This document shows positions 3,134-56,419 of a stretch of DNA of 64,000 bases, piece by piece (the first letter of the stretch is position 1; each line of letters opens with the position of its first letter). The stretch lies in IMG/VR virus record IMGVR_UViG_2571042445_000002. One strand, 5' to 3'. Source of the stretch: a virus. Lineage: Duplodnaviria; Heunggongvirae; Uroviricota; Caudoviricetes. The translations under genes and the position numbers were made by a program. The notes beneath the pieces were generated by a model. That model was not told the origin of the DNA. It was given only the letters and a program-made list of their open reading frames with translations, and searched no databases.

Positions 3134-3296
3134 CGATCATTTTATCCTCCATGATTATTAATGAATGTCATAATGATAGCGCACCGTTGCACCGTGCGCA
3201 AGTGCATATTGTAACAATTCCCCTCCTCCATCCAAAATCACAATCTCCCGAAAATCTTCCTTTCGATACCTGATAAATCGACCTTTGAGGACGCTT

Positions 3297-4852: not shown

Positions 4853-4855
4853 GCC

Positions 4856-23505: not shown

Positions 23506-23575
23506 TAGGTTAAAGTCAAAATCACACACTCCCTATCCTCCAGCCAAACGAGTACCGACTTTTCTGGAGGAATCC

Positions 23576-35963: not shown

Positions 35964-36290
35964 ATGTTTGCAGATTATGAAAATCTGGCTGTAGCAGTCA
36001 TAACATCCCTGCTGAGTGGAACCGGCGTATTCCTTCTCGGAGTTAGAGACGGGCGCATTTCTGCGTCACTGCTCAACCTCGCGAGTGAATTGTTTACTGC
36101 GGTAACTGCCGGGCTTGCGGGGTTTTGGGTGGCTGATAGCTATGAATGGCCGGAAGGCATCATTTACTGCGTTGTTCTGATTGCCAGTAACAACGGAAGT
36201 GAAATTTTACAGGGCTTGAAGTCCAGAGCTAGTAACGTCTTGAATCTCTTAAGCGTAATAGCGAGTGGGGGAAAAGGTGGAGAGAAGTAA
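35964..36290 (+). CDS. holin-like small membrane protein (LydA-like candidate)
   Basis: 108 aa with ~3 hydrophobic segments and charged C-terminus; SD GGAGGGG; first gene of operon that includes the DarA-like gene. Confidence 0.4.
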   Translation: MFADYENLAVAVITSLLSGTGVFLLGVRDGRISASLLNLASELFTAVTAGLAGFWVADSYEWPEGIIYCVVLIASNNGSEILQGLKSRASNVLNLLSVIASGGKGGEK

Positions 36291-36736
36291 TGGGTGACTT
36301 TGGAAATTATTTCATTTTTATCATGGCATTTGTTGCCGTTATTGACCGTTTCTTATTTCGTCGCAAGAGTGTTGATATTTTGAGCATTGGCGAAGCTGTA
36401 GTGAAAGAGTCTGCTATAGCGTTTCCCGTGTCGCTTCGCGTTAAGCGAAGCTGGGTAAGCAATGCACAAATCGAATATTGGTTGCAGGACTTGAAAAATC
36501 CATCTGTGGTTATTTCGGGGAAAACAAGACCAGTTGACGCATCAAAACGCGGTGAGAGAGAAGAATATTTGCTCATCGACACGAAATATCTTGAGCCAGC
36601 GAAGTGGGATCTAAAGGTCACATTGACTAACGGTAATTGCCGCCTGAATCCGCTTTATCGCATTTTCCCTATCAATGACTGCATAGAACGCCAGTTTATG
36701 ATTGAAAAGTGTGAAGGAGACTGGAATGTCAAATAA
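36290..36736 (+). CDS. hypothetical membrane-anchored protein
   Basis: N-terminal hydrophobic segment FGNYFIFIMAFVAVI; overlaps flanking genes. Confidence 0.35.
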   Translation: MGDFGNYFIFIMAFVAVIDRFLFRRKSVDILSIGEAVVKESAIAFPVSLRVKRSWVSNAQIEYWLQDLKNPSVVISGKTRPVDASKRGEREEYLLIDTKYLEPAKWDLKVTLTNGNCRLNPLYRIFPINDCIERQFMIEKCEGDWNVK

Positions 36737-37343
36737 GTCTAATTATGTTCTTCTTAATTATGATGAGTTAAACGAAAAGGGGCTGGCAAAACTCGTCAAA
36801 GAAATCGGTAAAGGAGGCTACAAGATAGCGAGGGTGATCCCCGCCAGTAATGGCAGGAAGAAAGACGGGATCATGACGCGCACGTTTACCCTTATCGGAA
36901 TCGATGAGCAGACGATGGACGTTCAGGTTAATGATACTGGTGATATTTCTGGTGTAAAACTGAACGGAAAAATTGTTCCTTTCAAGCCAGTTAAAACGCT
37001 GATGGCTTTAGGGCAATCACTGGCTGCTTTATTTAATAAAGGCGCATCATCATTTCAGAAATCATTGGCGCGTAAGTTAGCTCGTGCGGCGAAAGATATT
37101 GATGATGGGAATAAGAAAATAAAAGGCGTTAAGTCCAATGCGCAGAAACTAGCAGAGGCAAAGGAATCTCGCGATGCGATCCGCGAGGATATTGAAAGGG
37201 CCAAAGAAAAATTAAATCAGGTGCAAGGTAATTCAGACCGCGCAACAAGAGAAACTGAAATCATTAGAACCGAGATGGCGCAGGAACTGGCGAAAACTCG
37301 CGTATTGAAAGAAGAAATAGCGCGCCTGGAGGAAGATGCATGA
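36726..37343 (+). CDS. hypothetical protein with C-terminal coiled-coil
   Basis: ATG 36726 with AAGGAG SD; 205 aa. Confidence 0.4.
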   Translation: MSNKSNYVLLNYDELNEKGLAKLVKEIGKGGYKIARVIPASNGRKKDGIMTRTFTLIGIDEQTMDVQVNDTGDISGVKLNGKIVPFKPVKTLMALGQSLAALFNKGASSFQKSLARKLARAAKDIDDGNKKIKGVKSNAQKLAEAKESRDAIREDIERAKEKLNQVQGNSDRATRETEIIRTEMAQELAKTRVLKEEIARLEEDA

Positions 37344-39292
37344 TAAAGAAACCTATTCGAATAAATATCCAGTCCACTTTTGCAGATACGCTCACTGGAT
37401 ATACGCCTAATCGTTGGGTGGCGGAGGATATCACCGAGGATGATTTACTTATCGAGCCTGCGACGCTGGAAGATATCGAGCTGGCCTATATGGGCAACGA
37501 AATTTTGGTAACTACCAATGAGGCAATGTTCGAAGCTATAACCACAACAAAATTGCGGTTAGCGCAAACAATGCGAGCATTTGTCCGGGCGCTTAATCGC
37601 GGCCTGAATGGCACTGACATTGCTGCGGGTACGGATGAGGCAGGTGAATATGAAGACGGACGTAATAGTATCGGTGGGGCAATCATTGGGCGCGTGCGCC
37701 GGGTTGCTAATATCCCTGTTGTAACAGCACAAATACCTCTAACCGATGGACAAACGACAAGCATAATTTTCCATTCTCCAACCGCAGACGGCACAAGAAT
37801 TAAAGGGGATGACGAGCTGGTTGCGTTTCAGTTTCTTCTTAACAAAAGAAACGTTACGCATGTTGTTGCGCCAATCGGTGGGCGTGATGTATCTCTGAGC
37901 CAGGTGTGTCAGGCGCTTTCTAACCTCATTGAGCGTAACAGTGCAAAATTCAAAAAAGCAAAGGAGCGCCAGGACAAAATGAAGGCTGATATTGAGGGGT
38001 ATCTCAATGAAGCCGACAAGCTGGCAGAAGAACGTTCTGTGCTGATTGAGCAGGTTGAAGACGCACAGCGGGGGCTGGCAGAGAAACGCTCAACACTCAA
38101 TGATATGCAGAATAAATTAGACGCACAAAAAGCCCTTAACGCGGAATTGCAGGCTAAGCGCGATAATTTATTGTCAGCTAAGAGCCAAGGAACTAAAGAG
38201 CGAGCCTTCAATGATCAACTGCGACACATAAAACATAATCTTGCTACAGAAGGCCAAACAACGCTGGATAATGGTGCTGTAGTTAAGTATGTCACGTCAG
38301 GCAGTGATAGCTTTGTCACGATTGAGGCACCAGAAGGCAATTTCAGTATTGATGTCAGTGCTGTTAAAGGTGGGAGTTCAGCGGACGCTGCAACCAAATT
38401 ACTTAAAGCCTATCGTGAACATAATGCTGATCAATACAAAGTGGATGTGTTGCCGGGCCAGCCTGAGCCAACTGATCAGCCGCAGCCTGAACAGGAGCCA
38501 CAACCAGCATCACATCCTGATCCCCTGGAGGTTGGTAAATATCGCTATGCGCTCCAATCTCGCCCGGCGGGTGTTGGTGCGGTTCCTGAAGGAAATAAAG
38601 CTGTACTTGACCGTCCTGATCAGGCTGATCCGTATTACGAATATGCTCGTCACGGAATCATTACGTATGACCGCAAACTGACAGATGAAGAAGTCAGTCA
38701 GTACGAGTTGCTATATCTCCCTGGTGACGATGAATTGAAAGAGATTGCAGGCGAATTGGTTGCGTCCAGTATGTCGAACCATATTGATGGCTACGTTGAT
38801 CTGTTTGGAAGCGACTTGAAAACCTTTAAGGCGCAGATAAAAATCCTCTTCCGCAAAGCATTTCCTAACGTCGCTTATCCACTTGGAGATGGGGAGAACC
38901 TTTTTATAATGGATATCTATAACGCGCTTCAGAATCAATCAGAAGTAGTCGAAGCTGAACAGACATTAGATCAGGCGCCGGAAGCAGTACAAGAACCAGA
39001 ACCTGAGTCTGAACCTGAATCCCCCCAAGAGTCTGATACAGGTTCAGATGGGCCAGTAGTTAGTGAGGCTGATCAGGAGGCGGACAGTGCGCTGGAATAT
39101 CTGAAATCCGTGCCGTTGCAGTTTACGTCCCGTGATTTGACGGTGATTAGAGCGGAGTTTGATCGCATTCAGGAGGCAGCTAATGTTCTTATCAACGCAG
39201 GTCGATATGATGAGAACGAGTCACTTGTTGGTGCGGCAGCCGATCACCTGATCAACATTCTGGCAGAGATACAACAAGGGGGCGTGTGGTGA
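37340..39292 (+). CDS. large hypothetical protein, possible DarA-like virion internal protein
   Basis: 650 aa; size and operon context (after holin-like genes, as in the P1 lydA-lydB-darA arrangement recalled); central coiled-coil, acidic Pro-rich linkers. Confidence 0.4.
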   Translation: MIKKPIRINIQSTFADTLTGYTPNRWVAEDITEDDLLIEPATLEDIELAYMGNEILVTTNEAMFEAITTTKLRLAQTMRAFVRALNRGLNGTDIAAGTDEAGEYEDGRNSIGGAIIGRVRRVANIPVVTAQIPLTDGQTTSIIFHSPTADGTRIKGDDELVAFQFLLNKRNVTHVVAPIGGRDVSLSQVCQALSNLIERNSAKFKKAKERQDKMKADIEGYLNEADKLAEERSVLIEQVEDAQRGLAEKRSTLNDMQNKLDAQKALNAELQAKRDNLLSAKSQGTKERAFNDQLRHIKHNLATEGQTTLDNGAVVKYVTSGSDSFVTIEAPEGNFSIDVSAVKGGSSADAATKLLKAYREHNADQYKVDVLPGQPEPTDQPQPEQEPQPASHPDPLEVGKYRYALQSRPAGVGAVPEGNKAVLDRPDQADPYYEYARHGIITYDRKLTDEEVSQYELLYLPGDDELKEIAGELVASSMSNHIDGYVDLFGSDLKTFKAQIKILFRKAFPNVAYPLGDGENLFIMDIYNALQNQSEVVEAEQTLDQAPEAVQEPEPESEPESPQESDTGSDGPVVSEADQEADSALEYLKSVPLQFTSRDLTVIRAEFDRIQEAANVLINAGRYDENESLVGAAADHLINILAEIQQGGVW

Positions 39293-39657
39293 AAATATCA
39301 GTAACGGAGCGCCTTAGCTTAGGCAAAGAACTGTCTGAGCTGATGTCTGCGCAAAAAAGCGCGACTGCGGTACAACGTGTCACTATTGGCGTGCGGATAG
39401 TTGAAGTGATGATGAAGCTGGGGCTTGGTTCATCGAATAATCCAGCACAACAGCAAGAAGAGGAAGTGCAACCGGCGGCACAAGAAACGCCTAAAATTGT
39501 TGCTGACTTCCTTAGTGGTGCATTTACTAAATCATCACAAATGGAGTTCATCGATGCTTTGAGAGGCATATCTCAATATGTTGGTGAATTTTTGACACTC
39601 GACCAGGCCAAAGAACAGACCGTAAACTGGGTTTCAGCTAACGGGTATGCAGCGTAA
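39286..39657 (+). CDS. hypothetical protein
   Basis: 123-aa ORF overlapping previous stop. Confidence 0.4.
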   Translation: MVKISVTERLSLGKELSELMSAQKSATAVQRVTIGVRIVEVMMKLGLGSSNNPAQQQEEEVQPAAQETPKIVADFLSGAFTKSSQMEFIDALRGISQYVGEFLTLDQAKEQTVNWVSANGYAA

Positions 39658-39748
39658 AAGAGAGGGGCAGAATGCCCCTTTCTTCTTAAAATAGTCACCG
39701 AAATAACACACTTTTTACACTGCCTTTTTTACAGAAAGGTGGTTAATT

Positions 39749-41134
39749 GTGACTCAAAACGTAACATCAGCACTTCTGGCCGCAGCGAACATTGAGGGGG
39801 TTATCGCTGTGGTGTCATCTCTTGAAAAGCAAGAGACGAAGTTGGGGCGTAGCAGCTATGTCGTCACCAGCAAAGGCGACGAAGTTAAAACAGCGTTCAA
39901 GGTTATTGATGCCAAAAAGCTCATCATTTCTAACAACCTGGACGGAAGTATAAATCCGTCATTTCCGGAGGAACTCCAGCCTCGCGATCGCACCCGACTG
40001 TCAAGTAAGCTCCAGGTTAACCGTATCGCCGCCAATTTACGCCCGGCACAACTCACTGATTCGGGTATGAGTAGTCATGGTTCCCCGATTGTTGGTCCGG
40101 ATAATGTCGTTGAGTCTGGTAATGGTCGAAGCATGGGAATCTGGCGTGCTTATGAACAAGGGCAGGCTGAAGATTACCGACAATATCTTATCGATCACGC
40201 TAAAGAGTTTGGCCTTAATCCCGAAGACGTCAGGGCAATGGTGATGCCTGTACTGGTTCGCGAGCGCCTCACTGACGTTGATCGTGCTCAATTTGCACGC
40301 GACTCAAACATCAGCGATCTGCAAGAGATGGCTGCAAGTGAGAAAGCGTATGCGGATGCGCAATTTCTCACTGAGAGCGTCATGGCGCTATTTAATCCTT
40401 CAGATGATGGAAATCTACTGGCGCGGTCCAATGATGCGTTTATTCGTGCGTTTTTGCACGAAATAGGTGATACCGCGACGGCAGGTTTGCTTACAGCCGA
40501 TGGACGTCCAACGAAACAGCTTATCGATCGCATTCAGAATGCGATTTTTGCCAAAGCCTATAAGGATGAGCGACTTGTTCGGCTTGTGGCGGAAGAACCG
40601 GATCCGGAAATGCGCAATATCCTGACCGCGCTTAATACAGCGGCCAGTGACTTTGCGCAAATGCAGTCGATTTCTGGCGATGCACATCATGATGCTGTAA
40701 CTGGTCTGGTTGATGGTATAGAGCAGGTGAACGGTCTGGATAAACAGGCTATAGCAGCACTCCAGGACGCGATTAACCTTGTTCGTGAAGCCAAAGACAA
40801 CGGTCAGGCAGTGGAAGAGGTGATAGCCCAGCGCGGACTCTTCGGTGATAGCACGCCGGAAGCTGAGGCGTTGGCGCTATTCATCGTGGCAAATAATCGA
40901 AGCGCGAAGCGCATGGGGGCTGCATTCAAAAAAATGGCACAAAAAATCAACGACGAACTGATTCATAAACAGCAGGCGTTGGGCGATATGTTCGGCGGTG
41001 GAGATGTCGATCTACGTAGTATTTTGACCGCTGTTTCTAATGAGATTGAACTGGAACATGGAGAGGGGAAAGGGCTTAACTTCACGATGTTCGAAGCCAA
41101 AACAGAACAAAGCGATTTTGGGCTGGAAACCTGA
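39749..41134 (+). CDS. hypothetical protein with ParB/Srx-like N-terminal region
   Basis: Segment IDAKKLIISNN...LQPRDR...SPIVGPDNVVESGNGRSMG resembles ParB N-terminal box pattern; GTG start with AAGGTGG SD. Confidence 0.4.
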   Translation: MTQNVTSALLAAANIEGVIAVVSSLEKQETKLGRSSYVVTSKGDEVKTAFKVIDAKKLIISNNLDGSINPSFPEELQPRDRTRLSSKLQVNRIAANLRPAQLTDSGMSSHGSPIVGPDNVVESGNGRSMGIWRAYEQGQAEDYRQYLIDHAKEFGLNPEDVRAMVMPVLVRERLTDVDRAQFARDSNISDLQEMAASEKAYADAQFLTESVMALFNPSDDGNLLARSNDAFIRAFLHEIGDTATAGLLTADGRPTKQLIDRIQNAIFAKAYKDERLVRLVAEEPDPEMRNILTALNTAASDFAQMQSISGDAHHDAVTGLVDGIEQVNGLDKQAIAALQDAINLVREAKDNGQAVEEVIAQRGLFGDSTPEAEALALFIVANNRSAKRMGAAFKKMAQKINDELIHKQQALGDMFGGGDVDLRSILTAVSNEIELEHGEGKGLNFTMFEAKTEQSDFGLET

Positions 41135-41976: not shown

Positions 41977-42122
41977 AACTTCCTTGTTTGGTGGTTGCGT
42001 TTTTGGAAAAGCATTTCCGCATATGGAAAAACATCAGCATATGGTGAAAACAACGAAAAATTACTGATGAAATCACACACTGGATAAGCTGCCACGAAAT
42101 CGGAAACCTTTTGCGGTGAATC

Positions 42123-43808: not shown

Positions 43809-43821
43809 CCGGAGGGAAATA

Positions 43822-45019: not shown

Positions 45020-45652
45020 GTGAGTATTTTAAATTCAGTTTCAGTTACTTTCAACACTTCTGAGTATAAAAACAACACTGAATACCACAAAAAAATCAAA
45101 GGTCATCAGTTGAGTTTTTTTGCTCGTCATAGCGGTTTTCTTTCCCCTTCACATAGCGCCATTATTGCCGAGTTCGCCAACCTGGCAGGAGCTACCGATG
45201 AATACATGATCCGTCGCTCATATGCGGATATGTCCGAGATTACAGGACGCAGTATTTCTACTGTGCGCCGGGCATTTGCCGAAGCGACGAAGTGCGGAAT
45301 GCTTGTTAAGCAGCATCAGGTAGCGAATAACAATGCTCAGGTGTGTAACGTGTACCGGTTTACAACACAATTTCTCCACTTCATTCATGTAGCAATGGAG
45401 ATAGGGAGTAAGCAGGGCATCAAATTTGCCAACGCCACAAAACTGGTTAAGCAGTTGATTTCAAAGGTTCGTTATTTTTTTGAAACTGGGAACCCCCTGT
45501 TCAAATTGAACAAGTCCCCCCATGTTCAAAATGAACAGCCAATAGAAAATAAGAGTCACTCTATAGCCAAAAGAAGAGAAAGATCATGCGCGGTTCAGCC
45601 AAAGGCTTCACCAGCAGATAGTTCTCAAGCGGATAATGGGGGGGCTGGATAA
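45020..45652 (+). CDS. hypothetical protein with winged-helix-like DNA-binding segment (start uncertain)
   Basis: Segment ITGRSISTVRRAFAEATKCGMLVK; 210-aa ORF. Confidence 0.35.
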   Translation: MSILNSVSVTFNTSEYKNNTEYHKKIKGHQLSFFARHSGFLSPSHSAIIAEFANLAGATDEYMIRRSYADMSEITGRSISTVRRAFAEATKCGMLVKQHQVANNNAQVCNVYRFTTQFLHFIHVAMEIGSKQGIKFANATKLVKQLISKVRYFFETGNPLFKLNKSPHVQNEQPIENKSHSIAKRRERSCAVQPKASPADSSQADNGGAG

Positions 45653-46036
45653 AAAACCAGTAATCAGGGAAGAACATACCAACCACTGCCTGGCGGCGGC
45701 AAAAGCGAGAGCTGCAAAGCGTCGTTCAGATGAGGGGCACGCAAAACGGCAGGCTCTGTATCGTACCGCTGAAAAGCTGGCAAAAAAATTTGCATGGATA
45801 CGTAGTGCCGCTACAGCAGTGAATAAGCCTAAACAATCCAGTGCCCTGGATTTCTCAATGGATTATTCTGGCTCCCAGGGGTGTGCAACCATTGGTGAAG
45901 CCTTTGACCTGATGAAACAGCGTGGCTATCGGTCTGAATTTGACCGGGAAGACTGGTCAATTCCGGAGGGCTTTCGGGGATGATGTTGCGATTGACTGTA
46001 CAATAACCGTGCGGCGGGAATTTCATCGCTCGAAAA

Positions 46037-47559: not shown

Positions 47560-48051
47560 TCATGCCTCATTAGTTGAGGTTGCTGCGTCGCCGACAGGTA
47601 ACAGAACTGTATTGCGTGGTTCGCCAGCAGGCCAGCGATAGCCAGACACTCTTGATGTTGGGAATGCGCGAATATTAACAGCATCCCCCTGGTTCCCACC
47701 CAAGACAAGCAGATCGCCATTGGCGCGGCGTCCGACAACAAAGCCTACATGCCCACCGCCTGCGCGAGTAAATACAACGATACATCCGTATGCCGGTGTA
47801 TCTAATTTCTCGCCCCAATCCAGATAGGATTTTGCCGACTCAAATCTTGTTGAGCGGATGCCTACACGTTCCAGCATTGCACCGACAAATGCTGCGCACC
47901 ACGGCGTTTCATCGTCTTTAATTCCACCGCGCTTAATATCCCGCCAGAACTGGACGATCTCAGGATTGTGTTTCGCTCCTTTTATTTCGGTGACTCCAAT
48001 ATTTTTACGGGCTTCAATAAGCCAGCGAGGTTCATTATTGATCATAATCAT
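47560..48051 (-). CDS. peptidoglycan hydrolase candidate (papain-like Cys/His cell-wall peptidase)
   Basis: 163 aa; ETPWCAAFVGAMLER (Cys) and GGGHVGFVVG (His) arrangement typical of CHAP/NlpC-P60-like small phage hydrolases. Confidence 0.45.
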   Translation of the reverse strand: MIMINNEPRWLIEARKNIGVTEIKGAKHNPEIVQFWRDIKRGGIKDDETPWCAAFVGAMLERVGIRSTRFESAKSYLDWGEKLDTPAYGCIVVFTRAGGGHVGFVVGRRANGDLLVLGGNQGDAVNIRAFPTSRVSGYRWPAGEPRNTVLLPVGDAATSTNEA

Positions 48052-48238
48052 GCTCCGAATGAAAAAAGAGCAATAACTATGTTGAGAATGTGATTTCTAT
48101 TACACCAAACATTATTAAACGGCATTCATCTTTAACTTTATTCAATGTATTATCTAACAGAAAAGTTAAGTTGCGCTAAGTTAATGATAACACTGGTTAT
48201 TATTGGTTTGCGTTATTTATTTGAGAAAAGAGAAAGTT

Positions 48239-48736
48239 ATGAAAAAAGCAATATTAGCGACTATTGTTTGTGCATTTGCATTATCAGGATGCGCTCCGGT
48301 TCAGACATACAACAAGCCTCAGCAAGTAAAACAGTTTGTTAAACGCCCAGCATTCCCTGTAGAGGAATATCAGGCATTGCCGAAAAAAGGCACAGGTAAG
48401 GTTAAGGGGGAATTATTTGGAGTAACTCGCGGAGGGGATGTGAAGATTGGTGCTGGCTCCAATATCATACTGCGTCCGTATACTTCATATATCAAAAATA
48501 CCCCCAAAATTGATTACGACACTCAGACCTTAGAAATAATCGACGGCAGGGTTGCGGAATATGACAGAACTGTCCTGACTGATGCTCAAGGCAAATTTGA
48601 GTTCGAAAACGTACCACCAGGCCAGTATGAAGTGATTGGTTCGTTCAGTTGGTATGCTGGAAATTTCCCGCAAATCGTTCTTCTGAACAAAATCATTACC
48701 GTTAAGAACGGTGATGTTATCCAGGTTCAACCATGA
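48239..48736 (+). CDS. lipoprotein (possible carboxypeptidase-regulatory-like beta-sandwich domain)
   Basis: Signal peptide MKKAILATIVCAFALSGC with lipobox LSGC; C-terminal GKFEFENVPPGQYEV motif; AT-rich. Confidence 0.55.
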   Translation: MKKAILATIVCAFALSGCAPVQTYNKPQQVKQFVKRPAFPVEEYQALPKKGTGKVKGELFGVTRGGDVKIGAGSNIILRPYTSYIKNTPKIDYDTQTLEIIDGRVAEYDRTVLTDAQGKFEFENVPPGQYEVIGSFSWYAGNFPQIVLLNKIITVKNGDVIQVQP

Positions 48737-48848
48737 TCCCCTTTTGAGTAAGAACCTTCGGGGTGTGATTCTGCGAAATTAACACACTCCATACCCTCTC
48801 AAACCGTACCGCTTAAGGCGGATTTAACGGTTTTGAGGGGGGCTTCCT

Positions 48849-51800
48849 TTGGACAAAATAATTGATTCAATTAGCCAGGCCACCAGCATTGGGGCGCTGA
48901 TTGAAATTGTTAGTCGGTTGCATAAACCGCGAGCTGTAGTGACCTTTGGCGTTAAGAAAGTCGATGGCGTCAGTATTCAGAAAACACGCCGGGCAGCAAA
49001 CAACGCCGCAGTAAATCTTCTTAATTCCCTTCCGCCTGGCTTCGATGGGGCGAAATTAACTGACGAACAGCGCCAGATTCTTGCCGGGTATACCGGTGAA
49101 GGCGGCCTGACAGATGGTGAGGGCAGCCAATACGAATACTATACGCCACAGTTTATGGCAGAAGGTATATGGGATCTCTTCGGCGACTACGGTATTGATA
49201 GCGGTCACGTACTGGAACCGTCAGCAGGCACAGGTATTTTCCAGGAGACAAAACGGCAGGGCATGATAATGACCAGTGCCGAACTGTCTCCGATCTCCGG
49301 TCGAATAAACCAGCTTTTGCACCCGGAAGATGATGTGAATATCGGGGCGTTTGAGGCGCTGGCGGCGAAAGATGCAATGTATGACCACGCAGTTGGTAAC
49401 GTACCGTTTGGCGAAGGGCGTTCCGGCGTCGCCGGGCTTGATCCGGCATATGCAAACGAGAAGAACGTTGGCAATTATTTTGTGCTGCGCACGATCGACA
49501 AGGTTAAGCCTGGTGGACTAATTGTATTGGTGGTGCCGAATGGCATGACCGATGGTACGAAATACAAAAAATTGCGCGATAAAGTCAGCCGTAAAGCGGA
49601 ATTTTTGGGCGCGCATCGTATGCCTTCTGGTACGTTCAGCGAATCCGGTACAGATACCGTGGTGGACGTATGGGTATTGCGTAAACACCCGGAAACCTTC
49701 CTGGAGATGATCCCCGACACGGATGATGCAACGCTCAAATCGGCAAACGTCCTTTGGGATACCTTCCTCAAAGGGAAATGGTTTACAACCGAAGGGAAGC
49801 GATTTGTTTACGGCGACATGGAACGCACCAGCTTCCGCAATACCCTGGTGGTGAAAAAGGACGGTCGTGTATCCAATGAGTCGATGAAAACCGCGTTATC
49901 ATGCCGCTTTGAAAGCCGTATTAATTGGGATTTGCTCGGAGTAACTACCCAGGCATGGCAGGGCGCAAAAGTAGGGGATAAGCGTCTTGTAGGCGGTATC
50001 TGGCATGAGTTTGATGGCCTGAAATGGGTTAAGGACACGACAACCAAATCCTCCGCGCTTGATGTAAGTCGATATGGTGTTTCGACGTTTGGCGATCTGC
50101 AGATCGCGTTCCAGTCAACAAACGGGATTCTGGCTTTGTCATGGGACCAGATATCGGCGATCGCGTCCGACTATCCATCGGTTGTCAGTGATGAAGTGGC
50201 AGCAATGATTCGCTTTGCTGGCAAACAGCGAGAAAAAGACAGGGAGCGCGTTATGCGCGGTGCGTTGATAGGGCAGTTGATCAACAAGGCACTTGATTTG
50301 CGTAACCTGGGGGTGAACGTTGATGACAAACTGGCAGATGCATCCCGCCTGGCGGCAGCAGAAGTTGCGAAGTATGGACCACCGCACGCGATTAAGCTGA
50401 ATGGGCTTGCTGAAGCTGGCGCTAAAAACTGGATGACGTTCACTGGCAATGTGAAACAGGATGGTTCCACTTCTGACCTTCTGGCAGGGCGACTTGATGT
50501 AACGGATGGTGCTGCCGGTATTGACTTTACACGTCCGGAACAAGTGATAGCACATCTTTTCAGTGATGTAGCCCTTAATCCTATAACGCTGGGCGACTTT
50601 CGTGAGGCGTTTGCTGGTGAACTGCCAGAGGACGACGACGCGGCCCTTGAATACCTGGCGAAATTTGATGATATCGCTATTGATGGGTATGGCTGCCTGC
50701 TGCCGATGGACCGCGCCACCAGCGGCGATATTGTAACCAAAACAGCATTGCTGGTGGGCTGGCGTGATGCATCAACAGGTGAGCAGAAAGCGAACTTTGA
50801 GCGTCAGTTGGCGAAAATCGAAGAGAAACGCATTTTCACGCCACTAAATAAAGTCACCGTTAATCTGAACGCCCGCTGGCTGGATCGCCGCTTGATAAAA
50901 GAGTTCCTGGCAGAGCAGGGCTATGACGAGTTTAAGTACACTGAACCTGATCTGAAGGTCGTCGATGGCATTCTGGTATCTCCGGACGATTACGAAGGTA
51001 AGGACGGGGTATTTACCGGCTATCAGCTACGAACCGTAAACGGCAAAAACGGGAATGAGTTCAAGAAGGCCAACAATAAAGACGGCTTCCTGAACCAGTT
51101 AGAAAACTACCTGAACGGTGTTAAACCGCGTGGGCAGAACGCTAACGAGTACCTGGATAAAATTGCTCAACTGGAAGTTAGCTTTAACGACTGGTTACGC
51201 ACCCACCCGCAGGCGGATCAGATAGCCCGTGACTATAACGACGCATTCAATGGCTTCATTCCGTTCACGCACTCTAACGCACCGCTTGGCCTGGAAGGGA
51301 TTAGTGGAAAGCGCATTCCTCTGACTTATCAGAATGAAGAAGTTCGTCGCTTGTCAGAAGATGGGCGCGGCATCATGGGATTTGGTACCGGGCTGGGTAA
51401 AACCACGACCGCGCTTGCGCTTGAGGCGTATAACTTCGAAACAGGTCGTACTAAACGCACGTGTATTGTTGTTCCGAAGGCGGTTTATCAGAACTGGTAT
51501 CACGAGGCACAGAGCTTCTACAGTGCTGATGCCTTCGCCAATATGATGTTTATCGGTCTGGATGAAGTTCGTGATGACAGCGGAAATATTCTGACCGCTC
51601 CGGTGCTTGATGAAAATGGCGAACCCCGCCTCGACAGTAACGGGCAGCCTCTTACCAGAAATGTTGTGAAAGAGTCCGCCAGCGCCGTTATCGTTCAGCG
51701 CATGAACATGATCCCGTCGTCAAATTGGCGAACGGTCATCATGACAAAAGAACAATTCGCGTCTATCCCGCTACGAGAAAAAACCATCGAGGAGAACTCA

Positions 51801-54800
51801 CAGCAAGCTGTCTTTAATGCTGTGGAAATGGGGCGTCTTGACCTGGCGTCTGGTAAACACCGTGATGCGCAGAAGAAGAACAAGATTAAGGATCAGGCCG
51901 CGAATACCGGTACAACGAAGAAGCAGAATATCCCGTACTTTGAGGATATGAACTTCGATAGCGTGATAGCCGACGAGGGGCATAACTACCGCAACTCCTT
52001 TAATGCCGGGCGTGAAGCGGGACAACTGGCATATTTGCCTAACCCGGCAGTATCCAAGATGGCCCGCGACATGGCTGTAAAAGCTGCGTACATGATGAAA
52101 CGCAACAACGGGCGTGGTGTAGTCATGCTGACGGCAACACCGCTGGTGAACAGTCCGATTGATGCCTTCAACATGCTGTCTACTGTCATTCCGCAGGAAG
52201 AGTGGATGCGCATGGGCATCATTACGCCTGATGATTTCGTTCGTGTGTTTGGTAAAACAGCCACAGTTCAGGTCCAGAAAATTTCCGGGGAAGTGGAAGA
52301 GAAGCAGGGGCTGGTTGGCTTCCAGAACCTTGATGGCCTGCGTGGTATTTTCCATCGCTGGACTACTCTGAAGACTGCTGCGGACGTCGGGGCGACGGTT
52401 AAAATCCCTGATATTGTCGAGAATACCTTGCAGATCCCGATGACAGGGGAGCAGGAGGCTGCTTATGAAGAGCTTCGTAAGCGTGCACAGGAGTTAAGTA
52501 GTAAAGATGCGCTGACGGTTGATGAAAACGGGCATATCACAAACGAAAAACCGGATGATTTCATCTTCTCCATCATCCGCGACATGGATAAGGTTGCTAT
52601 AGATCCGGATCTGTATGCCAGTGCGATTACATTCCAGTTCCCCGTTGAGCTTGCAGACAAGGTAAAAGCTATTGCTGATGCCCTGCCAAAAGTAGCTGGC
52701 GGTAAAGTGGCAGATGATGCAGACGAGGCCGAAGAAGACGGCGCTGGTGGGCTGGTTAGTACGCGCACCAGTAAGGTAGTGAAGACCACCTTTAGTGAAC
52801 ATCCGGCGCATGTTGAAATACGTGCCAGCATTGAACTGGAAGCTGAAATACTGAAGGCCATTGCTGCCGCCGGGATTGATATGCAGCAGGTATCACACCC
52901 AATCCCGCCGAAGTATGCCGCGCTGATCGAAAACCTTCGTGAAGGTCTGAAGAACGGTAAACAAATTGTCTTCATTGATGAAAAAGCCCAGCACCAGAAG
53001 CTGCGCCGTATTATCGCCAGTGCACTGCAAATGCCGGAGCAGGAGATAGGCATTATCAATGCGACGACCGTTAGCCAGGCTGGCGGCATCAAGCTGAAGA
53101 AGGTGAATAAGCCGACTGAACCTACTCCGAATAAAAATGGTGAATACAAAGAAGGGGCATGGGAAACCTACTACAGCAAACTTGCCCAATATGAGGATTA
53201 TCTCTCAGCTAAAAATGATGCTGGCCTTGAGGGTATGGAAGGCATTGCCGCCGACTATAACGAAGGGCGCACGCGCATAATTATCTGTAACAAGAAGGCT
53301 GAAGTAGGTATTAACCTGCATATCGGGACAACCGATATCCACCACCTGACACTACCCTGGACACCAGCCAGTATCGACCAACGAAATGGGCGCGGTGCGC
53401 GCGTAGGTTCACCGCAAGAGAAGGTCAATGTTCACTACTATTGTGGCAAAGGCACATTCGACGACTTCCGTCTGGATACGCTGAAACGTAAGAAAGACTG
53501 GATCAAGATGGTGATGACCTCCGACATGTCAGAGATCGCCAATGGTGATGCGGATGATGCTGATGAACGCGCCATTATGCTGGCGGCAAACCCGGAAGAA
53601 CGCCGCGCAATCATGGCTCGCCAGGCGCAAGAGCGTGAAGAACGTCTGAAACTGAAAGCACAGCGCGAGGCCAACAATGCTCTCGATATCTACCTGAAAG
53701 CGGCAAACGCCGCTGGAAAAGATATCGGCATGATGGAGACAGAACTGAAAAGCGCGATGGAACAGATAGAGTATTACCAGCGAAATCTTGACGACCTGAT
53801 AAAAGCGGGTACGAACAGGAATGGGCAAAAATTCGCGCTTGAGCAGTTGAGTAGCTACAGAAAACGTGCGCGGGTGCTGCGGTTTGCGATCACCAGGGCA
53901 AAAGACGCGGATACCATAATGAAACGCTCTCGTGGTGATGTGGAGCGCGCTATTAAGTCTGGTGTGCTGGATATCAGTATCGATGTTATTCAGAACCCAC
54001 AGGAATATATGCGCACTGACAAGAATATCCTGTTGCATAAAGGTAGTTATTACCGTGCAGTCATTGATGATCGCGAAACAACAGCGATTGTCCGGGTGGA
54101 AAAAATTGACGGTGAAAAAGCACAATACCTCTGCCGTATCGCCTGGCTGGATAGAGCAAGTCGTTACGCTCGAGCACCGGGGTCAATCGTTACATTGCCG
54201 TTTGACTCTGTGATTGAAGCGGTAACTTTTGAAGAGGGGGTAGCTGAATCGCGCGCAACGGCTGCGCGTGGTGTTCAGTGCCACCAGCTATCAACAATAC
54301 TTACTCGCGATCAGTTCTATGATGCTATTCGCAATGGGGTAATGAATGTTATTGCTGGTAAACCTGGTAATGCATGGGGCGGTGGGTCAGCTATTAAATA
54401 CTGGGCATATCGCACAGATGATGGTCAGATCGCGCTGTCATCGGCCTATGATGGCGTGATAGGCCAAAAAATCGGGCGAGCATCGGATATAGCACCTGAA
54501 CGATGGATATATCCAGATGGCAACGATGAGGCGCTGAAGCGTGAAGTGGCAAAAATACAAGCCAGTGATAACCCGCTGAATATCGTGGACGGCGAGGGAT
54601 TCCTCCAGGCATTGTATGGGTATGATTACATCCAGGGAATGCAGGCATGGGGCGCACAGGCAACGATGGATGATGTTGTCCAGGAGTTCGAAAACTGGAT
54701 GGCTGGGCGTGGTCTGTCAGGTCGTTCGCTTAATAAAGTCACTTCTGAAGATATTCTTAGCTTGTTCCGCAAACCGTCCGGAGAAGGTCTGGAATCATTC

Positions 54801-55685
54801 TGGAGGACCGTGCTGGCATACCGTTTATTCAAGGGCAGAATGAAAGCCTTTAGCAATATCGATGATATTGAACGGATGTTTAATCAGGTCAAGATCGCCA
54901 AAATTAAGACGAAGATCGAAAAAACACGTTCTGCGCTGGTGGCCTGGCGCGATGCATTGTTTGAGCAATATAAATCACTCAGTGATGCAGATGGATGGGC
55001 GGCATTGGAACAGTTGGCGAATAATGGGGTAGATGGAGCGAAACTCGCCATAGTCCAGGCTGATAACCCCCTGGAATCACCGGCAGCACAGTGGATTAAG
55101 GTGGGGGCTGTCATCAATGCATTTGATGAAAAACACATTAGTAAGGACGATTTTGCTGATGCTGTTTCTGTTAATCGCCTGGTAGAAATGGCTACCCGCC
55201 GCGCCCGTGAGTTGAAAGACGGTGACTATGTGAATGAGTTGCCGGATGCGCTCAAATCAGCAACGTGGCAAGACTATGTATCGCTGAAAAACGGCGGGGC
55301 CACCGAATCAGAGATCGCGGAAAGGCTTGAACAGGCTGAAAGCAAAAGAGAAGAGCAGGCGGCAGTGGCTGAAGCCAGAGCTGATGAAGCGGCGAATGAT
55401 GACTATATCATTGTGGTTAATGATAAGCCGATTCGCGCTAAGGCGCGTGTTCGCGGGCGCTGGTGGAGTGTCAGCGAGGACGTCGGTGCGGTTTATCTCA
55501 TTGCCGACCAACCAGGTTCCTCGACAATACGGAACGCCAAAGACGCGATTAAGAAGATTGGCGGGCGTTTCTGGAATTTTGAAGCAAACCCGGTTGCTGA
55601 TGTGAACTTTGACCGTCCTGCATGGATGGTATCTACGCGTTACTCGGTAGATGAACTGCGTAAAATAATCGCCGATGCGGCCTAA
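48849..55685 (+). CDS. darB: DarB-like giant N6-adenine methyltransferase / SF2 helicase fusion (anti-restriction candidate)
   Basis: 2278 aa; MTase motif I VLEPSAGTGIF and motif IV-like GNVPFG near N-terminus; helicase motifs GFGTGLGKTT (Walker A), VIADEGHNYRN (DExH), LTATPLVNS, RNGRGARVG; size matches P1 DarB as recalled; TTG start. Confidence 0.7.
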   Translation: MDKIIDSISQATSIGALIEIVSRLHKPRAVVTFGVKKVDGVSIQKTRRAANNAAVNLLNSLPPGFDGAKLTDEQRQILAGYTGEGGLTDGEGSQYEYYTPQFMAEGIWDLFGDYGIDSGHVLEPSAGTGIFQETKRQGMIMTSAELSPISGRINQLLHPEDDVNIGAFEALAAKDAMYDHAVGNVPFGEGRSGVAGLDPAYANEKNVGNYFVLRTIDKVKPGGLIVLVVPNGMTDGTKYKKLRDKVSRKAEFLGAHRMPSGTFSESGTDTVVDVWVLRKHPETFLEMIPDTDDATLKSANVLWDTFLKGKWFTTEGKRFVYGDMERTSFRNTLVVKKDGRVSNESMKTALSCRFESRINWDLLGVTTQAWQGAKVGDKRLVGGIWHEFDGLKWVKDTTTKSSALDVSRYGVSTFGDLQIAFQSTNGILALSWDQISAIASDYPSVVSDEVAAMIRFAGKQREKDRERVMRGALIGQLINKALDLRNLGVNVDDKLADASRLAAAEVAKYGPPHAIKLNGLAEAGAKNWMTFTGNVKQDGSTSDLLAGRLDVTDGAAGIDFTRPEQVIAHLFSDVALNPITLGDFREAFAGELPEDDDAALEYLAKFDDIAIDGYGCLLPMDRATSGDIVTKTALLVGWRDASTGEQKANFERQLAKIEEKRIFTPLNKVTVNLNARWLDRRLIKEFLAEQGYDEFKYTEPDLKVVDGILVSPDDYEGKDGVFTGYQLRTVNGKNGNEFKKANNKDGFLNQLENYLNGVKPRGQNANEYLDKIAQLEVSFNDWLRTHPQADQIARDYNDAFNGFIPFTHSNAPLGLEGISGKRIPLTYQNEEVRRLSEDGRGIMGFGTGLGKTTTALALEAYNFETGRTKRTCIVVPKAVYQNWYHEAQSFYSADAFANMMFIGLDEVRDDSGNILTAPVLDENGEPRLDSNGQPLTRNVVKESASAVIVQRMNMIPSSNWRTVIMTKEQFASIPLREKTIEENSQQAVFNAVEMGRLDLASGKHRDAQKKNKIKDQAANTGTTKKQNIPYFEDMNFDSVIADEGHNYRNSFNAGREAGQLAYLPNPAVSKMARDMAVKAAYMMKRNNGRGVVMLTATPLVNSPIDAFNMLSTVIPQEEWMRMGIITPDDFVRVFGKTATVQVQKISGEVEEKQGLVGFQNLDGLRGIFHRWTTLKTAADVGATVKIPDIVENTLQIPMTGEQEAAYEELRKRAQELSSKDALTVDENGHITNEKPDDFIFSIIRDMDKVAIDPDLYASAITFQFPVELADKVKAIADALPKVAGGKVADDADEAEEDGAGGLVSTRTSKVVKTTFSEHPAHVEIRASIELEAEILKAIAAAGIDMQQVSHPIPPKYAALIENLREGLKNGKQIVFIDEKAQHQKLRRIIASALQMPEQEIGIINATTVSQAGGIKLKKVNKPTEPTPNKNGEYKEGAWETYYSKLAQYEDYLSAKNDAGLEGMEGIAADYNEGRTRIIICNKKAEVGINLHIGTTDIHHLTLPWTPASIDQRNGRGARVGSPQEKVNVHYYCGKGTFDDFRLDTLKRKKDWIKMVMTSDMSEIANGDADDADERAIMLAANPEERRAIMARQAQEREERLKLKAQREANNALDIYLKAANAAGKDIGMMETELKSAMEQIEYYQRNLDDLIKAGTNRNGQKFALEQLSSYRKRARVLRFAITRAKDADTIMKRSRGDVERAIKSGVLDISIDVIQNPQEYMRTDKNILLHKGSYYRAVIDDRETTAIVRVEKIDGEKAQYLCRIAWLDRASRYARAPGSIVTLPFDSVIEAVTFEEGVAESRATAARGVQCHQLSTILTRDQFYDAIRNGVMNVIAGKPGNAWGGGSAIKYWAYRTDDGQIALSSAYDGVIGQKIGRASDIAPERWIYPDGNDEALKREVAKIQASDNPLNIVDGEGFLQALYGYDYIQGMQAWGAQATMDDVVQEFENWMAGRGLSGRSLNKVTSEDILSLFRKPSGEGLESFWRTVLAYRLFKGRMKAFSNIDDIERMFNQVKIAKIKTKIEKTRSALVAWRDALFEQYKSLSDADGWAALEQLANNGVDGAKLAIVQADNPLESPAAQWIKVGAVINAFDEKHISKDDFADAVSVNRLVEMATRRARELKDGDYVNELPDALKSATWQDYVSLKNGGATESEIAERLEQAESKREEQAAVAEARADEAANDDYIIVVNDKPIRAKARVRGRWWSVSEDVGAVYLIADQPGSSTIRNAKDAIKKIGGRFWNFEANPVADVNFDRPAWMVSTRYSVDELRKIIADAA

Positions 55686-55721
55686 CAGATAAGGAGCGGC
55701 CCCAACCGGGGCCGAATTTGA

Positions 55722-56156
55722 ATGACGACATTAATTGACACTGTAAAACCGACGGAATCCTACCTTGAGGACATTTTGCCGCAGGCGCTCAATGGCAGGA
55801 GTGAAGAGGCGTTTCTGGATGCATATCTGGATGGCATGGCGGAAAGGCTGAAAAGAGATCCACAGCTTTATCATCTTTATGGGCCGTGGTGGCCTGCGCT
55901 TAAAACGTTATTGCTGGAGCGTGGCGACATATCATTTGGACAAGTTGTAGATAGTGATGTGGCAGAAATCTACAAAATGAGTCGCCCGGCGCTTACGGTT
56001 TTAGCCGGGCATCTGTATTCGAGCGATCGCCTGGAAAATGACGCGGTATACAATCCCGTTCATGCTCTGGAAGTCGCGCCTTATGCTGATGATACAGAGC
56101 CATACGTATACACAAGTTACGACGAGTCTATAGAGAAATATCGAATCGTGGGGTAG
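55722..56156 (+). CDS. hypothetical protein
   Basis: 144-aa ORF after GC hairpin 55697-55714. Confidence 0.4.
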   Translation: MTTLIDTVKPTESYLEDILPQALNGRSEEAFLDAYLDGMAERLKRDPQLYHLYGPWWPALKTLLLERGDISFGQVVDSDVAEIYKMSRPALTVLAGHLYSSDRLENDAVYNPVHALEVAPYADDTEPYVYTSYDESIEKYRIVG

Positions 56157-56158
56157 CC

Positions 56159-56419
56159 ATGCGGAAGAATCGTAGGTTTACGATCGACGACTTAAAAGCG
56201 TACTCACAAGGGAAGGGATACGCCCTTGAATACCACCGTTATAAGCGGGTATTTACCCTGCGGCATATAGAAAACCCTTCGAAATGGGGATGGATTTATT
56301 TTCCGCACACTGACGATAAGCTGGTGGGACTTGTTGATGATTTATCCTATGAAGGATGGATGATTGCTATCGACAAGGCGGTTACGGAAATTAACGAACC
56401 TGATAAAATAAACCATTAA
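56159..56419 (+). CDS. hypothetical protein
   Basis: 86-aa ORF, 2-nt gap from previous gene. Confidence 0.4.
   Translation: MRKNRRFTIDDLKAYSQGKGYALEYHRYKRVFTLRHIENPSKWGWIYFPHTDDKLVGLVDDLSYEGWMIAIDKAVTEINEPDKINH

What the first reader, a model, noticed from the sequence alone, without database searches (positions are those of the whole stretch)
48239..55685. DarB-like 2278-aa methyltransferase-helicase preceded by a lipoprotein gene
The giant ORF combines an N-terminal gamma-class N6-adenine MTase signature (EPSAGTGIF, NVPF) with SF2 helicase motifs (GTGLGKTT, DEGH, TATP, RNGRGARVG), matching the P1 DarB design for virion-delivered protection against type I restriction. The upstream lipoprotein (lipobox LSGC) lies behind the same operator-like motif and has no assigned role; it could act in exclusion or envelope functions.
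Basis: partly seen in the sequence, partly recalled or inferred. Interest (0 to 1): 0.55.

Follow-up and report, generated by a model that had tools for sequence, protein, structure and literature searches.

The report
Known DarB antirestriction gene plus lipoprotein moron
The giant gene is the already annotated DarB antirestriction protein of a phage-D6-like (P1-related) plasmid prophage of E. coli, and the small lipoprotein gene in front of it is a separately acquired, rare cargo gene of the PA1324 envelope-lipoprotein family whose role in phages is untested.

Summary
A 165-aa lipoprotein gene (48239-48736, lipobox LSGC) lies upstream.

The window is a phage-D6-like, P1-related plasmid prophage of E. 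coli. The giant ORF is 96.9% identical in DNA to D6 orf15, which is annotated "similar to P1 gene darB". It is 43% identical in protein to P1 DarB over about 2000 residues. A ulx homologue follows it, and homologues of hdf, darA, ddrA and ddrB lie in the same window. DarB is therefore an ordinary, already known orthologue.

The "same operator-like motif" claim is weak. The phage does have a real 14-bp operator-like motif, but the copy before the lipoprotein gene has 3 mismatches, and darB has none. Interest is low.

The parts
48849..55685 (+). darB homologue, 2278 aa, TTG start. It has an N-terminal gamma-type (EcoKI/TaqI-like) N6-adenine methyltransferase domain (about aa 90-290, nt 49116-49718). 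A SNF2/SF2 helicase follows (N lobe about aa 820-1215, C lobe about aa 1464-1600), then a long C-terminal region colinear with P1 DarB.
   Evidence: ORF. 96.9% nt identity to phage D6 orf15. 43% aa identity to P1 DarB over 2000 aa, and the extreme C terminus is still weakly alignable. Pfam SNF2-rel_dom 4.8e-13, ResIII, Helicase_C; N6_Mtase 20.1 bits against a cut-off of 20.4. PHROG phrog_1685 matches full length; phrog_10089 'DarB-like antirestriction' 1.4e-79. Motif positions.
55722..56156 (+). ulx homologue (144 aa). In P1, Ulx is the partner that aids DarB localisation to the head.
   Evidence: 46% identity to P1 Ulx, E 8e-45. phrog_1629 'Ulx-like anti-restriction' 4.5e-59. Role in P1: PMC9024508 Table.
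56159..56419 (+). 86-aa ORF of unknown function. It occupies the position that lxc holds in P1 but is not homologous to Lxc.
   Evidence: No similarity to P1 Lxc. phrog_6844 (unknown function) 3.3e-47. Also annotated in D6 as orf13.
48239..48736 (+). Lipoprotein gene (165 aa). It has a signal peptide with lipobox L-S-G-C (Cys18) and Ala at +2, so it is predicted to go to the outer membrane. The mature part is a prealbumin/transthyretin-like beta-sandwich of the PA1324 family.
48097..48775 (.). Insertion of about 670 bp relative to phage D6 and most D6-like plasmids. It carries the lipoprotein gene with its own upstream region (the moron cassette).
   Evidence: Alignment with D6, pEC361_3 and CP085065. 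Only 5 of 579 PLSDB hits cover it. 11 of 5426 complete E. coli genomes have it, all on 89-95 kb plasmids. The exact protein is always found in the context CHAP(-) | lipoprotein | DarB.
48146..48159 (-). Degenerate copy (TGTTAGATAATACA, 3 mismatches) of the phage's operator-like motif TGTTAGAAAAYTAA. It overlaps the best sigma-70 -10 candidate (TATTAT, 48148-48153) for the lipoprotein gene.
   Evidence: On its own the match is at chance level. The core TGTTAGA is retained.
48088..48096 (+). ATGTGATTT, conserved in all D6-like sequences at the left edge of the insertion. It resembles the -22 box of P1 late promoters (AAGTGATTT in LPlyz, AAGTGACTA in LPpro) and is a candidate late promoter element for darB.
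   Evidence: The motif class is not significantly enriched in the window: 8 found against 4.3 expected. This assignment is weak.
48794..48841 (+). Predicted RNA hairpin directly upstream of the darB TTG start. Its 3' arm contains the Shine-Dalgarno sequence GAGGGGGG. No U-tract follows, so it is not a typical terminator.
   Evidence: Fold of 48737-48870: -40.4 kcal/mol, z -2.4. The arms are conserved in D6 and pEC361_3. No + strand terminator-like site lies between the two genes.
35964..41134 (+). The rest of the Dar system in the same window: lydA (35964-36290), lydB (36290-36736), hdf (36702-37343), darA (37340-39292), ddrA (39286-39657) and a half-length ddrB (39749-41134, 461 aa against 995 aa in P1).
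   Evidence: tblastn of P1 proteins against the window. DarA 39% id, 2.7e-131. Hdf 40%. DdrA 37%. DdrB residues 2-442 only, 64%, E = 0. ORFs.

Best explanation
The region holds two independent features of a D6-like (P1-related) plasmid prophage of E. coli.

**1. darB-ulx, the second operon of the phage's Dar (defence against restriction) system.**
- By homology with P1, DarB (about 250 kDa) is made late and is directed into the head by its N terminus. This needs Hdf/DarA, DdrA, DdrB and Ulx.
- DarB is ejected with the DNA and protects that DNA in cis from EcoK/EcoB-type type I restriction.
- The proposed mechanism is that the SNF2-type translocase moves the adenine methyltransferase along the incoming DNA.

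**2. A moron cassette of about 670 bp inserted into the short promoter region between the divergent CHAP/TIGR02594 gene and darB.**
- It encodes an outer-membrane lipoprotein of the PA1324 family (prealbumin fold, envelope-homeostasis/glycan-binding type).
- It most likely acts in the host cell envelope, giving envelope stress tolerance or exclusion of other phages. It does not act in antirestriction.

**Shown here:** the homologies, the gene order, the insertion boundaries, the fold, the purifying selection and the mobile-element distribution.

**Inferred:** virion packaging, antirestriction activity, timing of expression and the lipoprotein's function.
For: **DarB**
- 96.9% nt identity to annotated D6 darB-like orf15.
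- 43% aa identity to P1 DarB over about 2000 aa, starting at residue 1.
- Methyltransferase motifs I and IV and helicase motifs I, II, III and VI are intact.
- SNF2/ResIII/Helicase_C domains are detected.
- A Ulx homologue lies directly downstream.
- hdf-darA-ddrA-ddrB homologues are in the window.
- The P1 mechanism comes from PMC9024508, PMC12810830 and PMC5512222.

**Lipoprotein as an independent moron**
- Absent from D6 and most relatives.
- Homologues lie right after the cI-type repressor gene in P. aeruginosa temperate phages.
- Homologues also occur between Q and the lysis genes of a Providencia prophage, next to an OmpA-like gene, in integrative islands, and among IS elements on a Klebsiella plasmid where only the CDS is homologous.
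- PA1324 family membership.
- PA1324 is a lipoprotein of the envelope-stress (sigma-22) stimulon. Its loss perturbs envelope homeostasis (PMC3372973).
- dN/dS is 0.089.
Against: **DarB**
- No experiment on D6-type DarB is known to me.
- Pfam N6_Mtase is just below its cut-off (20.1 against 20.4 bits).
- The N-terminal 30 residues, which form the capsid-targeting signal in P1, are only weakly conserved.
- The DdrB homologue, which in P1 aids DarB incorporation, is only the N-terminal half.

**Lipoprotein**
- No functional data exist for any phage-borne member.
- The expression cues conflict. A degenerate operator-like site over the candidate -10 suggests repression in the lysogen. The position after cI in Pseudomonas phages suggests expression in the lysogen.
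- The gene may simply be co-transcribed with darB, because no terminator lies between them.
Confidence: 0.85

Rival explanations
1. The lipoprotein is a superinfection-exclusion protein in the manner of T5 Llp or phi80/N15 Cor. On this reading it is an outer-membrane lipoprotein that blocks a receptor or the DNA-entry step used by competing phages. It would be made either from the prophage or early after induction.
For: - It is an OM-type lipoprotein.
- It is carried as cargo by many unrelated temperate elements, in classical conversion slots: after cI and between Q and the lysis genes.
- Two alleles are 81% identical with identical flanks, which indicates allele replacement.
- A possible operator lies over the -10 candidate.
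Against: - The only similarity to Cor is in the signal peptide (phrog_1119, residues 1-25, E 4.8e-4). The fold is that of PA1324, not of Llp or Cor.
- There is no PADLOC hit.
- dN/dS of 0.09 shows no diversifying selection.
- No experimental data exist.
Confidence: 0.3
2. The lipoprotein works together with the neighbouring divergent CHAP/TIGR02594 peptidoglycan hydrolase, for example as a periplasmic immunity or modulator protein, or as a cell-wall-binding helper. It would not be an independent moron.
For: - The two genes are adjacent and divergent, sharing a 187-bp control region.
- PA1324 was proposed to bind polysaccharide associated with the cell wall (PMC3372973 citing Mercier 2009).
- The Providencia homologue lies about 1.7 kb from a CHAP-domain lysis gene.
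Against: - Most D6-like plasmids and D6 itself keep the CHAP gene without the lipoprotein.
- The Pseudomonas, Klebsiella and island contexts show no CHAP gene among the annotated neighbours.
Confidence: 0.07
3. The giant protein is a host-directed or defence-type methyltransferase-helicase, acting like DISARM DrmD, Zorya ZorD or a type I/III restriction-modification enzyme in the lysogen. On this reading it would not be a virion-delivered antirestriction protein.
For: Weak domain-level hits to DrmD, ZorD, DpdE and BrxH helicases and to type II methyltransferases.
Against: - All those hits are far below the family cut-offs (for example DrmD 45 bits against a cut-off of 610) and cover only the generic helicase lobes.
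- Full-length colinear homology is to P1 DarB.
- ulx and the darA operon are present.
- No nuclease domain or partner defence genes are nearby.
Confidence: 0.03

Closest known systems
Phage D6 orf15 / gp112 (YP_009914692.1, 'similar to P1 gene darB')
   Same: Same length (2278 aa), same TTG start and 96.9% nt identity across the gene. The downstream ulx-like gene and the 86-aa ORF are also shared.
   Different: In D6 the gene follows the CHAP/TIGR02594 gene directly. The window has a lipoprotein cassette of about 670 bp inserted in that intergenic region.
Phage P1 DarB (YP_006479.1, 2255 aa) with Ulx
   Same: Colinear over the full length at 43% identity. Same methyltransferase and SNF2 helicase motifs. 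ulx lies immediately downstream. hdf-darA-ddrA-ddrB are elsewhere in the genome.
   Different: - Only 43% identical, and the N-terminal targeting segment is poorly conserved.
- TTG start instead of ATG.
- lxc is replaced by an unrelated 86-aa ORF.
- The neighbourhood is rearranged: prt/pro are not divergent from darB.
- The ddrB homologue is half-length.
Pseudomonas aeruginosa PA1324 (PDB 3qec, 1xpn)
   Different: - About 29% identity.
- PA1324 is a chromosomal gene in an operon with PA1323 under sigma-22 control. The window's gene is cargo of a phage-plasmid.
- The biochemical function of PA1324 is itself only postulated.
phrog_14789 proteins of temperate P. aeruginosa phages (PP9W, Fyn8, JBD88b, DO4, vB_Pae_CF213a and others)
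   Same: 37-39% identity over 87-93% of the length. The lipobox LSGC and the motif KGTG...GGDVK.GAG are conserved. The genes are phage-borne.
   Different: Those genes lie directly downstream of the cI-type repressor on the same strand. Here the gene lies upstream of darB in a late/structural region. None has a tested function.
Cor (phi80/N15) and Llp (T5) exclusion lipoproteins
   Same: Small phage-encoded outer-membrane lipoproteins. The analogy is functional only.
   Different: There is no homology beyond the signal peptide, and the fold is different.

Membership tests
P1 DarB family (methyltransferase-SNF2 helicase antirestriction 'polyvalent' protein) | Full-length colinear sequence homology to P1 DarB | tested here: met
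   BLASTP gives 1522 bits and 43% identity over 2000 aa, starting at residue 1. The C-terminal end aligns weakly. phrog_10089 'DarB-like antirestriction' 1.4e-79.
P1 DarB family (methyltransferase-SNF2 helicase antirestriction 'polyvalent' protein) | EcoKI/TaqI-like N6-adenine methyltransferase motifs: TP helix cap, motif I xPxxGxGxF, then motif IV N-x-P-F/Y | tested here: met
   YYTP at aa 97, EPSAGTGIF at 123 and NVPF at 184, identical or near-identical in P1. HMM support is marginal: Pfam N6_Mtase 20.1 bits against a 20.4 cut-off, and PDB 7eew type I methyltransferase E 4e-4. The family definition is from PMC5512222.
P1 DarB family (methyltransferase-SNF2 helicase antirestriction 'polyvalent' protein) | SF2/SNF2 helicase fused C-terminal to the methyltransferase, with motifs I, II, III and VI intact | tested here: met
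   GTGLGKTT at 846, DEGH at 1042, TATP at 1095 and QRNGRGARVG at 1511. SNF2-rel_dom 4.8e-13, ResIII and Helicase_C are above their cut-offs.
P1 DarB family (methyltransferase-SNF2 helicase antirestriction 'polyvalent' protein) | Genetic linkage to ulx and presence of hdf-darA-ddrA-ddrB in the same phage | tested here: met
   Ulx is 46% identical and lies directly downstream. Hdf, DarA, DdrA and DdrB homologues lie at 36702-41134. The DdrB homologue covers only P1 residues 2-442.
P1 DarB family (methyltransferase-SNF2 helicase antirestriction 'polyvalent' protein) | Packaged into the phage head through an N-terminal targeting signal and ejected with the DNA | not testable with these tools
   This is known for P1, where the N-terminal 30 residues are sufficient (PMC9024508). 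The N-terminal 30 residues here share only a few identities with P1.
P1 DarB family (methyltransferase-SNF2 helicase antirestriction 'polyvalent' protein) | Protects phage DNA from EcoK/EcoB-type type I restriction | not testable with these tools
   This needs plating assays of a deletion mutant. Only P1 data exist.
Bacterial lipoprotein (type II signal peptide) | Basic n-region, hydrophobic h-region and lipobox [LVI][ASTG][GA]C | tested here: met
   MKKAILATIVCAFA-LSGC-AP. The Cys is invariant in 63 homologues. Residue +2 is Ala, not Asp, which by the E. coli +2 rule (established knowledge) predicts outer-membrane sorting. Lipidation itself was not tested.
PA1324 family (prealbumin-fold envelope lipoproteins) | Significant sequence and structure similarity to PA1324 over the whole mature domain | tested here: met
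Pfam CarboxypepD_reg (PF13620) | Score above the Pfam gathering threshold | tested here: not met
   24.7 bits against a cut-off of 32.3, with only residues 109-139 matched. The fold class (transthyretin-like sandwich) is shared, which explains the RefSeq name.
Cor / Llp superinfection-exclusion lipoproteins | Homology of the mature protein to Cor (phrog_1119) or Llp | tested here: not met
   Only the signal peptide (residues 1-25) matches phrog_1119, E 4.8e-4. The viral fold library gives no significant match.
Repressor-controlled gene of this phage (operator TGTTAGAAAAYTAA) | A good copy of the operator-like motif in the promoter region | tested here: inconclusive
   Perfect copies lie at 14616, 44834 (before repL), 46041 (before icd/ant) and 57651. 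The copy at 48146-48159 has 3 mismatches, where 24 matches are found against 12 expected. It keeps the core TGTTAGA and overlaps the candidate -10. darB has none.

The most novel reading that the evidence does not exclude
The PA1324-family lipoprotein may be a widespread, uncharacterised class of lysogenic-conversion or superinfection-exclusion protein. Unrelated temperate elements have captured it repeatedly: D6-like phage-plasmids of E. coli, cI-adjacent in P. aeruginosa siphophages, the Q-lysis moron slot in Providencia, and integrative islands. It would act by binding a cell-envelope glycan (peptidoglycan or LPS/core) to block entry of competing phages or to harden the envelope. If so, this would also suggest a physiological role for the chromosomal PA1324.
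Probability: 0.3. Interest if true: 0.45.

Novelty: already known. Interest (0 to 1): 0.15.

Why it matters
It matters little for DarB. The gene is the orthologue of an annotated D6 gene and of the well-studied P1 DarB, so the finding only confirms that D6-like phage-plasmids carry a complete Dar system.

The modest point of interest is the lipoprotein. It is a rare, strongly conserved cargo gene of the PA1324 family that recurs in classical moron positions of unrelated temperate phages, and no member has been tested. If it proves to be an exclusion or envelope-conversion factor, it would add a new family to the small set of phage lipoproteins with known roles (Cor, Llp, Bor, TraT-like). It would also give a handle on the function of PA1324.

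Tried and rejected
1. **P1-type C1 operator (ATTGCTCTAATAAATTT).** I searched for it around the lipoprotein gene. Only the ATTGCTCT half matches at 48059-48074, neither the pattern nor its core is significantly enriched in the window, and the site is not conserved in D6. Rejected.

2. **Recurrence of the upstream sequence.** I searched every 15-mer of 48040-48240 for copies elsewhere in the window with up to 2 mismatches. Nothing meaningful turned up.

3. **P1-type late promoter (-22 box, 4 nt, TANNNT).** The box ATGTGATTT at 48088 is conserved in D6-like sequences, but the -10 and spacing do not fit. The box class is not enriched: 8 found against 4.3 expected. I kept it only as a weak candidate.

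4. **ACTGGATAAGYTG motif.** It is shared by the regions upstream of lydA and prt. It has only two copies and none near darB, so I did not use it.

5. **Lxc homology of the 86-aa ORF after ulx.** None was found.

6. **Defence-system membership of DarB (DISARM DrmD, Zorya ZorD, Dpd, BREX).** Only generic helicase-lobe similarity far below the cut-offs was found.

7. **Viral structure library for the lipoprotein model.** No significant match.

8. **Literature search by protein accession and PHROG number.** No papers were found.

9. **Flanks of the Klebsiella homologue.** Only the CDS is homologous, so no mobile unit could be defined.
Full report
**1. Observation**

The ORF list shows a single uninterrupted reading frame at 48849-55685 on the + strand (TTG start, 2278 aa).

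Upstream, 48239-48736 encodes a 165-aa protein that begins MKKAILATIVCAFALSGC. This is a canonical type II signal peptide with lipobox LSGC. The coordinates and the description are therefore correct.

**2. What the window is**

Megablast of 48000-56000 against phage genomes finds Escherichia phage D6 at 96.9% identity over window positions 48775-56000. P1 and P7 match only a short conserved stretch.

The D6 record annotates the matching gene (orf15, 2278 aa) as "similar to P1 gene darB". The next gene is annotated "similar to P1 gene ulx". Near-identical sequence occurs on circular E. coli plasmids of about 89-95 kb with the same gene order: portal, pro, repL, icd, Rha/ant, CHAP/TIGR02594 on the minus strand, then the giant gene.

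The window is therefore a D6-like, P1-related plasmid prophage.

**3. The giant gene is a DarB orthologue**

Sequence and domain evidence:
- BLASTP against P1 DarB gives 1522 bits and 43% identity over 2000 residues, starting at residue 1 of both proteins. The extreme C termini are still weakly alignable.
- Pfam finds SNF2-rel_dom, ResIII and Helicase_C above threshold. N6_Mtase is just below threshold at 20.1 bits against 20.4.
- PHROGs gives a full-length match to phrog_1685 and a match to "DarB-like antirestriction".

Context evidence:
- The gene that follows (55722-56156) is 46% identical to P1 Ulx.
- A tblastn of P1 proteins against the window finds LydA, LydB, Hdf, DarA, DdrA and DdrB homologues at 35964-41134, and Prt and Pro at 42123-44820.
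- All six known Dar components of P1 therefore have homologues in this window.

What is known from P1:
- DarB is a head protein of about 250 kDa, present at roughly 40 copies. Its N-terminal 30 residues target it to the capsid.
[quoted passage not shown] Ulx and DdrB aid its incorporation.
- It counters EcoK and EcoB (PMC9024508; PMC12810830).
- The domain logic is an EcoKI/TaqI-like adenine methyltransferase with a TP-capped helix, fused to a SWI2/SNF2 translocase. This was described as the "DNA methylase-helicase dyad" with DarB as the archetype (PMC5512222).

Packaging and antirestriction in this phage remain inferred.

Hits to defence-system helicases (DrmD, ZorD, DpdE) are generic and far below the family cut-offs.

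**4. The lipoprotein gene is a separate insertion**

An alignment of the CHAP-darB intergenic region from the window, D6, pEC361_3 and CP085065 shows what differs. D6 and pEC361_3 lack about 670 bp (window positions about 48097-48775). That segment contains the lipoprotein gene and its upstream region.

How common the cassette is:
- In PLSDB, only 5 of 579 matching plasmids cover the segment.
- Among 5426 complete E. coli genomes, 11 have it, always on 89-95 kb plasmids.
- In the large assembly collection the identical protein is common, and every context read shows the same arrangement: CHAP(-) | lipoprotein | DarB.

A second allele (CP159120) is 81% identical in protein, while its first 145 upstream bases are identical. 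Between the two alleles dS is 0.79 and dN is 0.071, giving dN/dS of 0.089. The gene is therefore real and under purifying selection, and the locus is mosaic.

**5. What the lipoprotein is**

Family searches give little by name:
- Pfam gives only sub-threshold hits to transthyretin-like sandwich domains (CarboxypepD_reg 24.7 bits against 32.3).
- NCBIfam and PADLOC give nothing.
- PHROGs places it in phrog_14789, of unknown function. The only hit to the Cor exclusion family covers the signal peptide.

A profile search collected 126 homologues, mostly Pseudomonas proteins of 160-170 aa and none characterised. The lipobox Cys is invariant among 63 of them.

Structure gives a clear answer:
- An AlphaFold model built on that alignment is confident (mean pLDDT 93.7).
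- The sequence profile also finds 3qec and 1xpn at E about 1e-31.

PA1324 is a predicted lipoprotein of the sigma-22 (AlgU) envelope-stress stimulon. Its inactivation causes constitutive stress signalling and mild temperature sensitivity. Its prealbumin-like structure led to a proposal that it binds or transports polysaccharide (PMC3372973).

**6. Where relatives of the lipoprotein live**

| Host / element | Identity | Position |
|---|---|---|
| Temperate P. aeruginosa phages (PP9W, Fyn8, CF213a; also JBD88b, DO4) | 37-39% | Immediately downstream of the cI-type repressor gene, same strand |
| Providencia lambdoid prophage | 49% | Between antiterminator Q and the holin/lysis genes, next to an OmpA-like beta-barrel gene |
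| P. fragi and Superficieibacter | 36% and 62% | Integrase-bearing islands |
| Klebsiella 285-kb plasmid | 69% | Between IS elements; only the CDS is homologous to the window |

The gene is thus a free-standing cargo gene (moron) that different mobile elements have picked up. It has no consistent link to DarB, to methyltransferases or to CHAP hydrolases.

**7. Regulation**

The phage has a genuine operator-like motif, TGTTAGAAAAYTAA.
- It has four perfect copies (14616, 44834, 46041, 57651), plus several copies with 1-2 mismatches that often form inverted pairs, all between genes.
- Two perfect copies precede repL and icd/ant. In P1 the corresponding operons are C1-controlled (my knowledge of P1; not tested here).

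The copy before the lipoprotein gene (48146-48159, minus strand, TGTTAGATAATACA) is much weaker.
- It has 3 mismatches. At that stringency 24 matches are found against 12 expected by chance.
- It keeps the core TGTTAGA, which occurs 14 times against 6.5 expected.
- It overlaps the best sigma-70 -10 candidate, TATTAT at 48148-48153.

darB has no such site. The short D6-type intergenic region carries a conserved ATGTGATTT (48088-48096) that resembles P1 late-promoter -22 boxes. The fit is imperfect and the motif class is not enriched.

No + strand terminator-like site separates the lipoprotein gene from darB, so read-through is possible. A predicted hairpin at 48794-48841 sequesters the darB Shine-Dalgarno sequence, and its arms are conserved in D6.

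**8. Mechanism and verdict**

The best-supported picture has two unrelated parts.

*darB-ulx.* This encodes the head-packaged methyltransferase-translocase and its helper. Together with Hdf, DarA, DdrA and DdrB, they protect the ejected DNA from type I restriction as in P1. This is inferred by orthology, with confidence of about 0.8 for function and above 0.95 for homology.

*The lipoprotein.* It is a rare moron of the PA1324 family. It most likely acts in the envelope of the carrier cell, giving stress tolerance or phage exclusion. The mechanism is unknown, and exclusion specifically has a probability of about 0.3.

The DarB part is already known, because D6's own annotation says so. The lipoprotein is an uncharacterised member of a structurally known family. 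Overall interest is low.

Noticed in passing
window 45020-45983 (repL); G-run at about 45641-45647: The lytic replication gene repL is split into two ORFs (45020-45652 and 45636-45983). The cause is one extra G in a G-run: 7 G here against 6 in a near-identical contig, and GGGTGG or GTGGTA in CP085065 and D6. This is either a sequencing error in a homopolymer or a real frameshift that inactivates RepL.
   Followed up: partly
window 39749-41134: The DdrB homologue is only 461 aa and matches P1 DdrB residues 2-442 at 64% identity (P1 DdrB is 995 aa). The same 461-aa ORF is annotated in plasmid CP085065, so this is a lineage feature and not an error. In P1, DdrB aids DarB incorporation.
   Followed up: partly
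window 14616, 44834, 46041, 57651 (perfect); 6526/6542, 58896/58912, 62545/62561 (inverted pairs with 1-2 mismatches): A 14-bp operator-like motif, TGTTAGAAAAYTAA, recurs in intergenic regions, including upstream of repL and icd/ant. It is probably the operator of this phage's C1-type repressor and differs from the P1 operator ATTGCTCTAATAAATTT.
   Followed up: partly
window 48794-48841: A conserved hairpin lies directly upstream of the darB TTG start. Its 3' arm contains the Shine-Dalgarno sequence, and no U-tract follows. It may act as a translational brake on a 250-kDa protein. It is present in D6 with small changes.
   Followed up: partly
window 35919-35932 and 42078-42091: The motif (A/C)ACTGGATAAG(T/C)TG occurs just upstream of the lydA-dar operon and of prt, and nowhere else at 2 or fewer mismatches. 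It may be a late-gene control element of D6-like phages that differs from the P1 late promoter.
   Followed up: no
window 23330-23400: Four or five tandem copies of an approximately 19-bp unit (ATCGCACATAGTCAACATTAA) lie upstream of the ORF at 23450-24400. They look like iterons of a plasmid replication or partition region.
   Followed up: no
L002 (CP085065) 3086-6471 compared with window 39657-39749: The otherwise near-identical plasmid CP085065 carries an extra block of about 3.5 kb between ddrA and ddrB. It holds DUF3944, an HTH regulator, a HicA toxin and TnpB, and the window lacks it. This is another variable cargo site inside the dar operon.
   Followed up: no
L029 (CP159120) 1640-2113 compared with window 48239-48736: A second allele of the lipoprotein (81% aa identity, 8-aa deletion after the lipobox, dS 0.79) sits at the same locus, with 145 bp of identical upstream sequence. 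This indicates allele replacement by recombination.
   Followed up: yes
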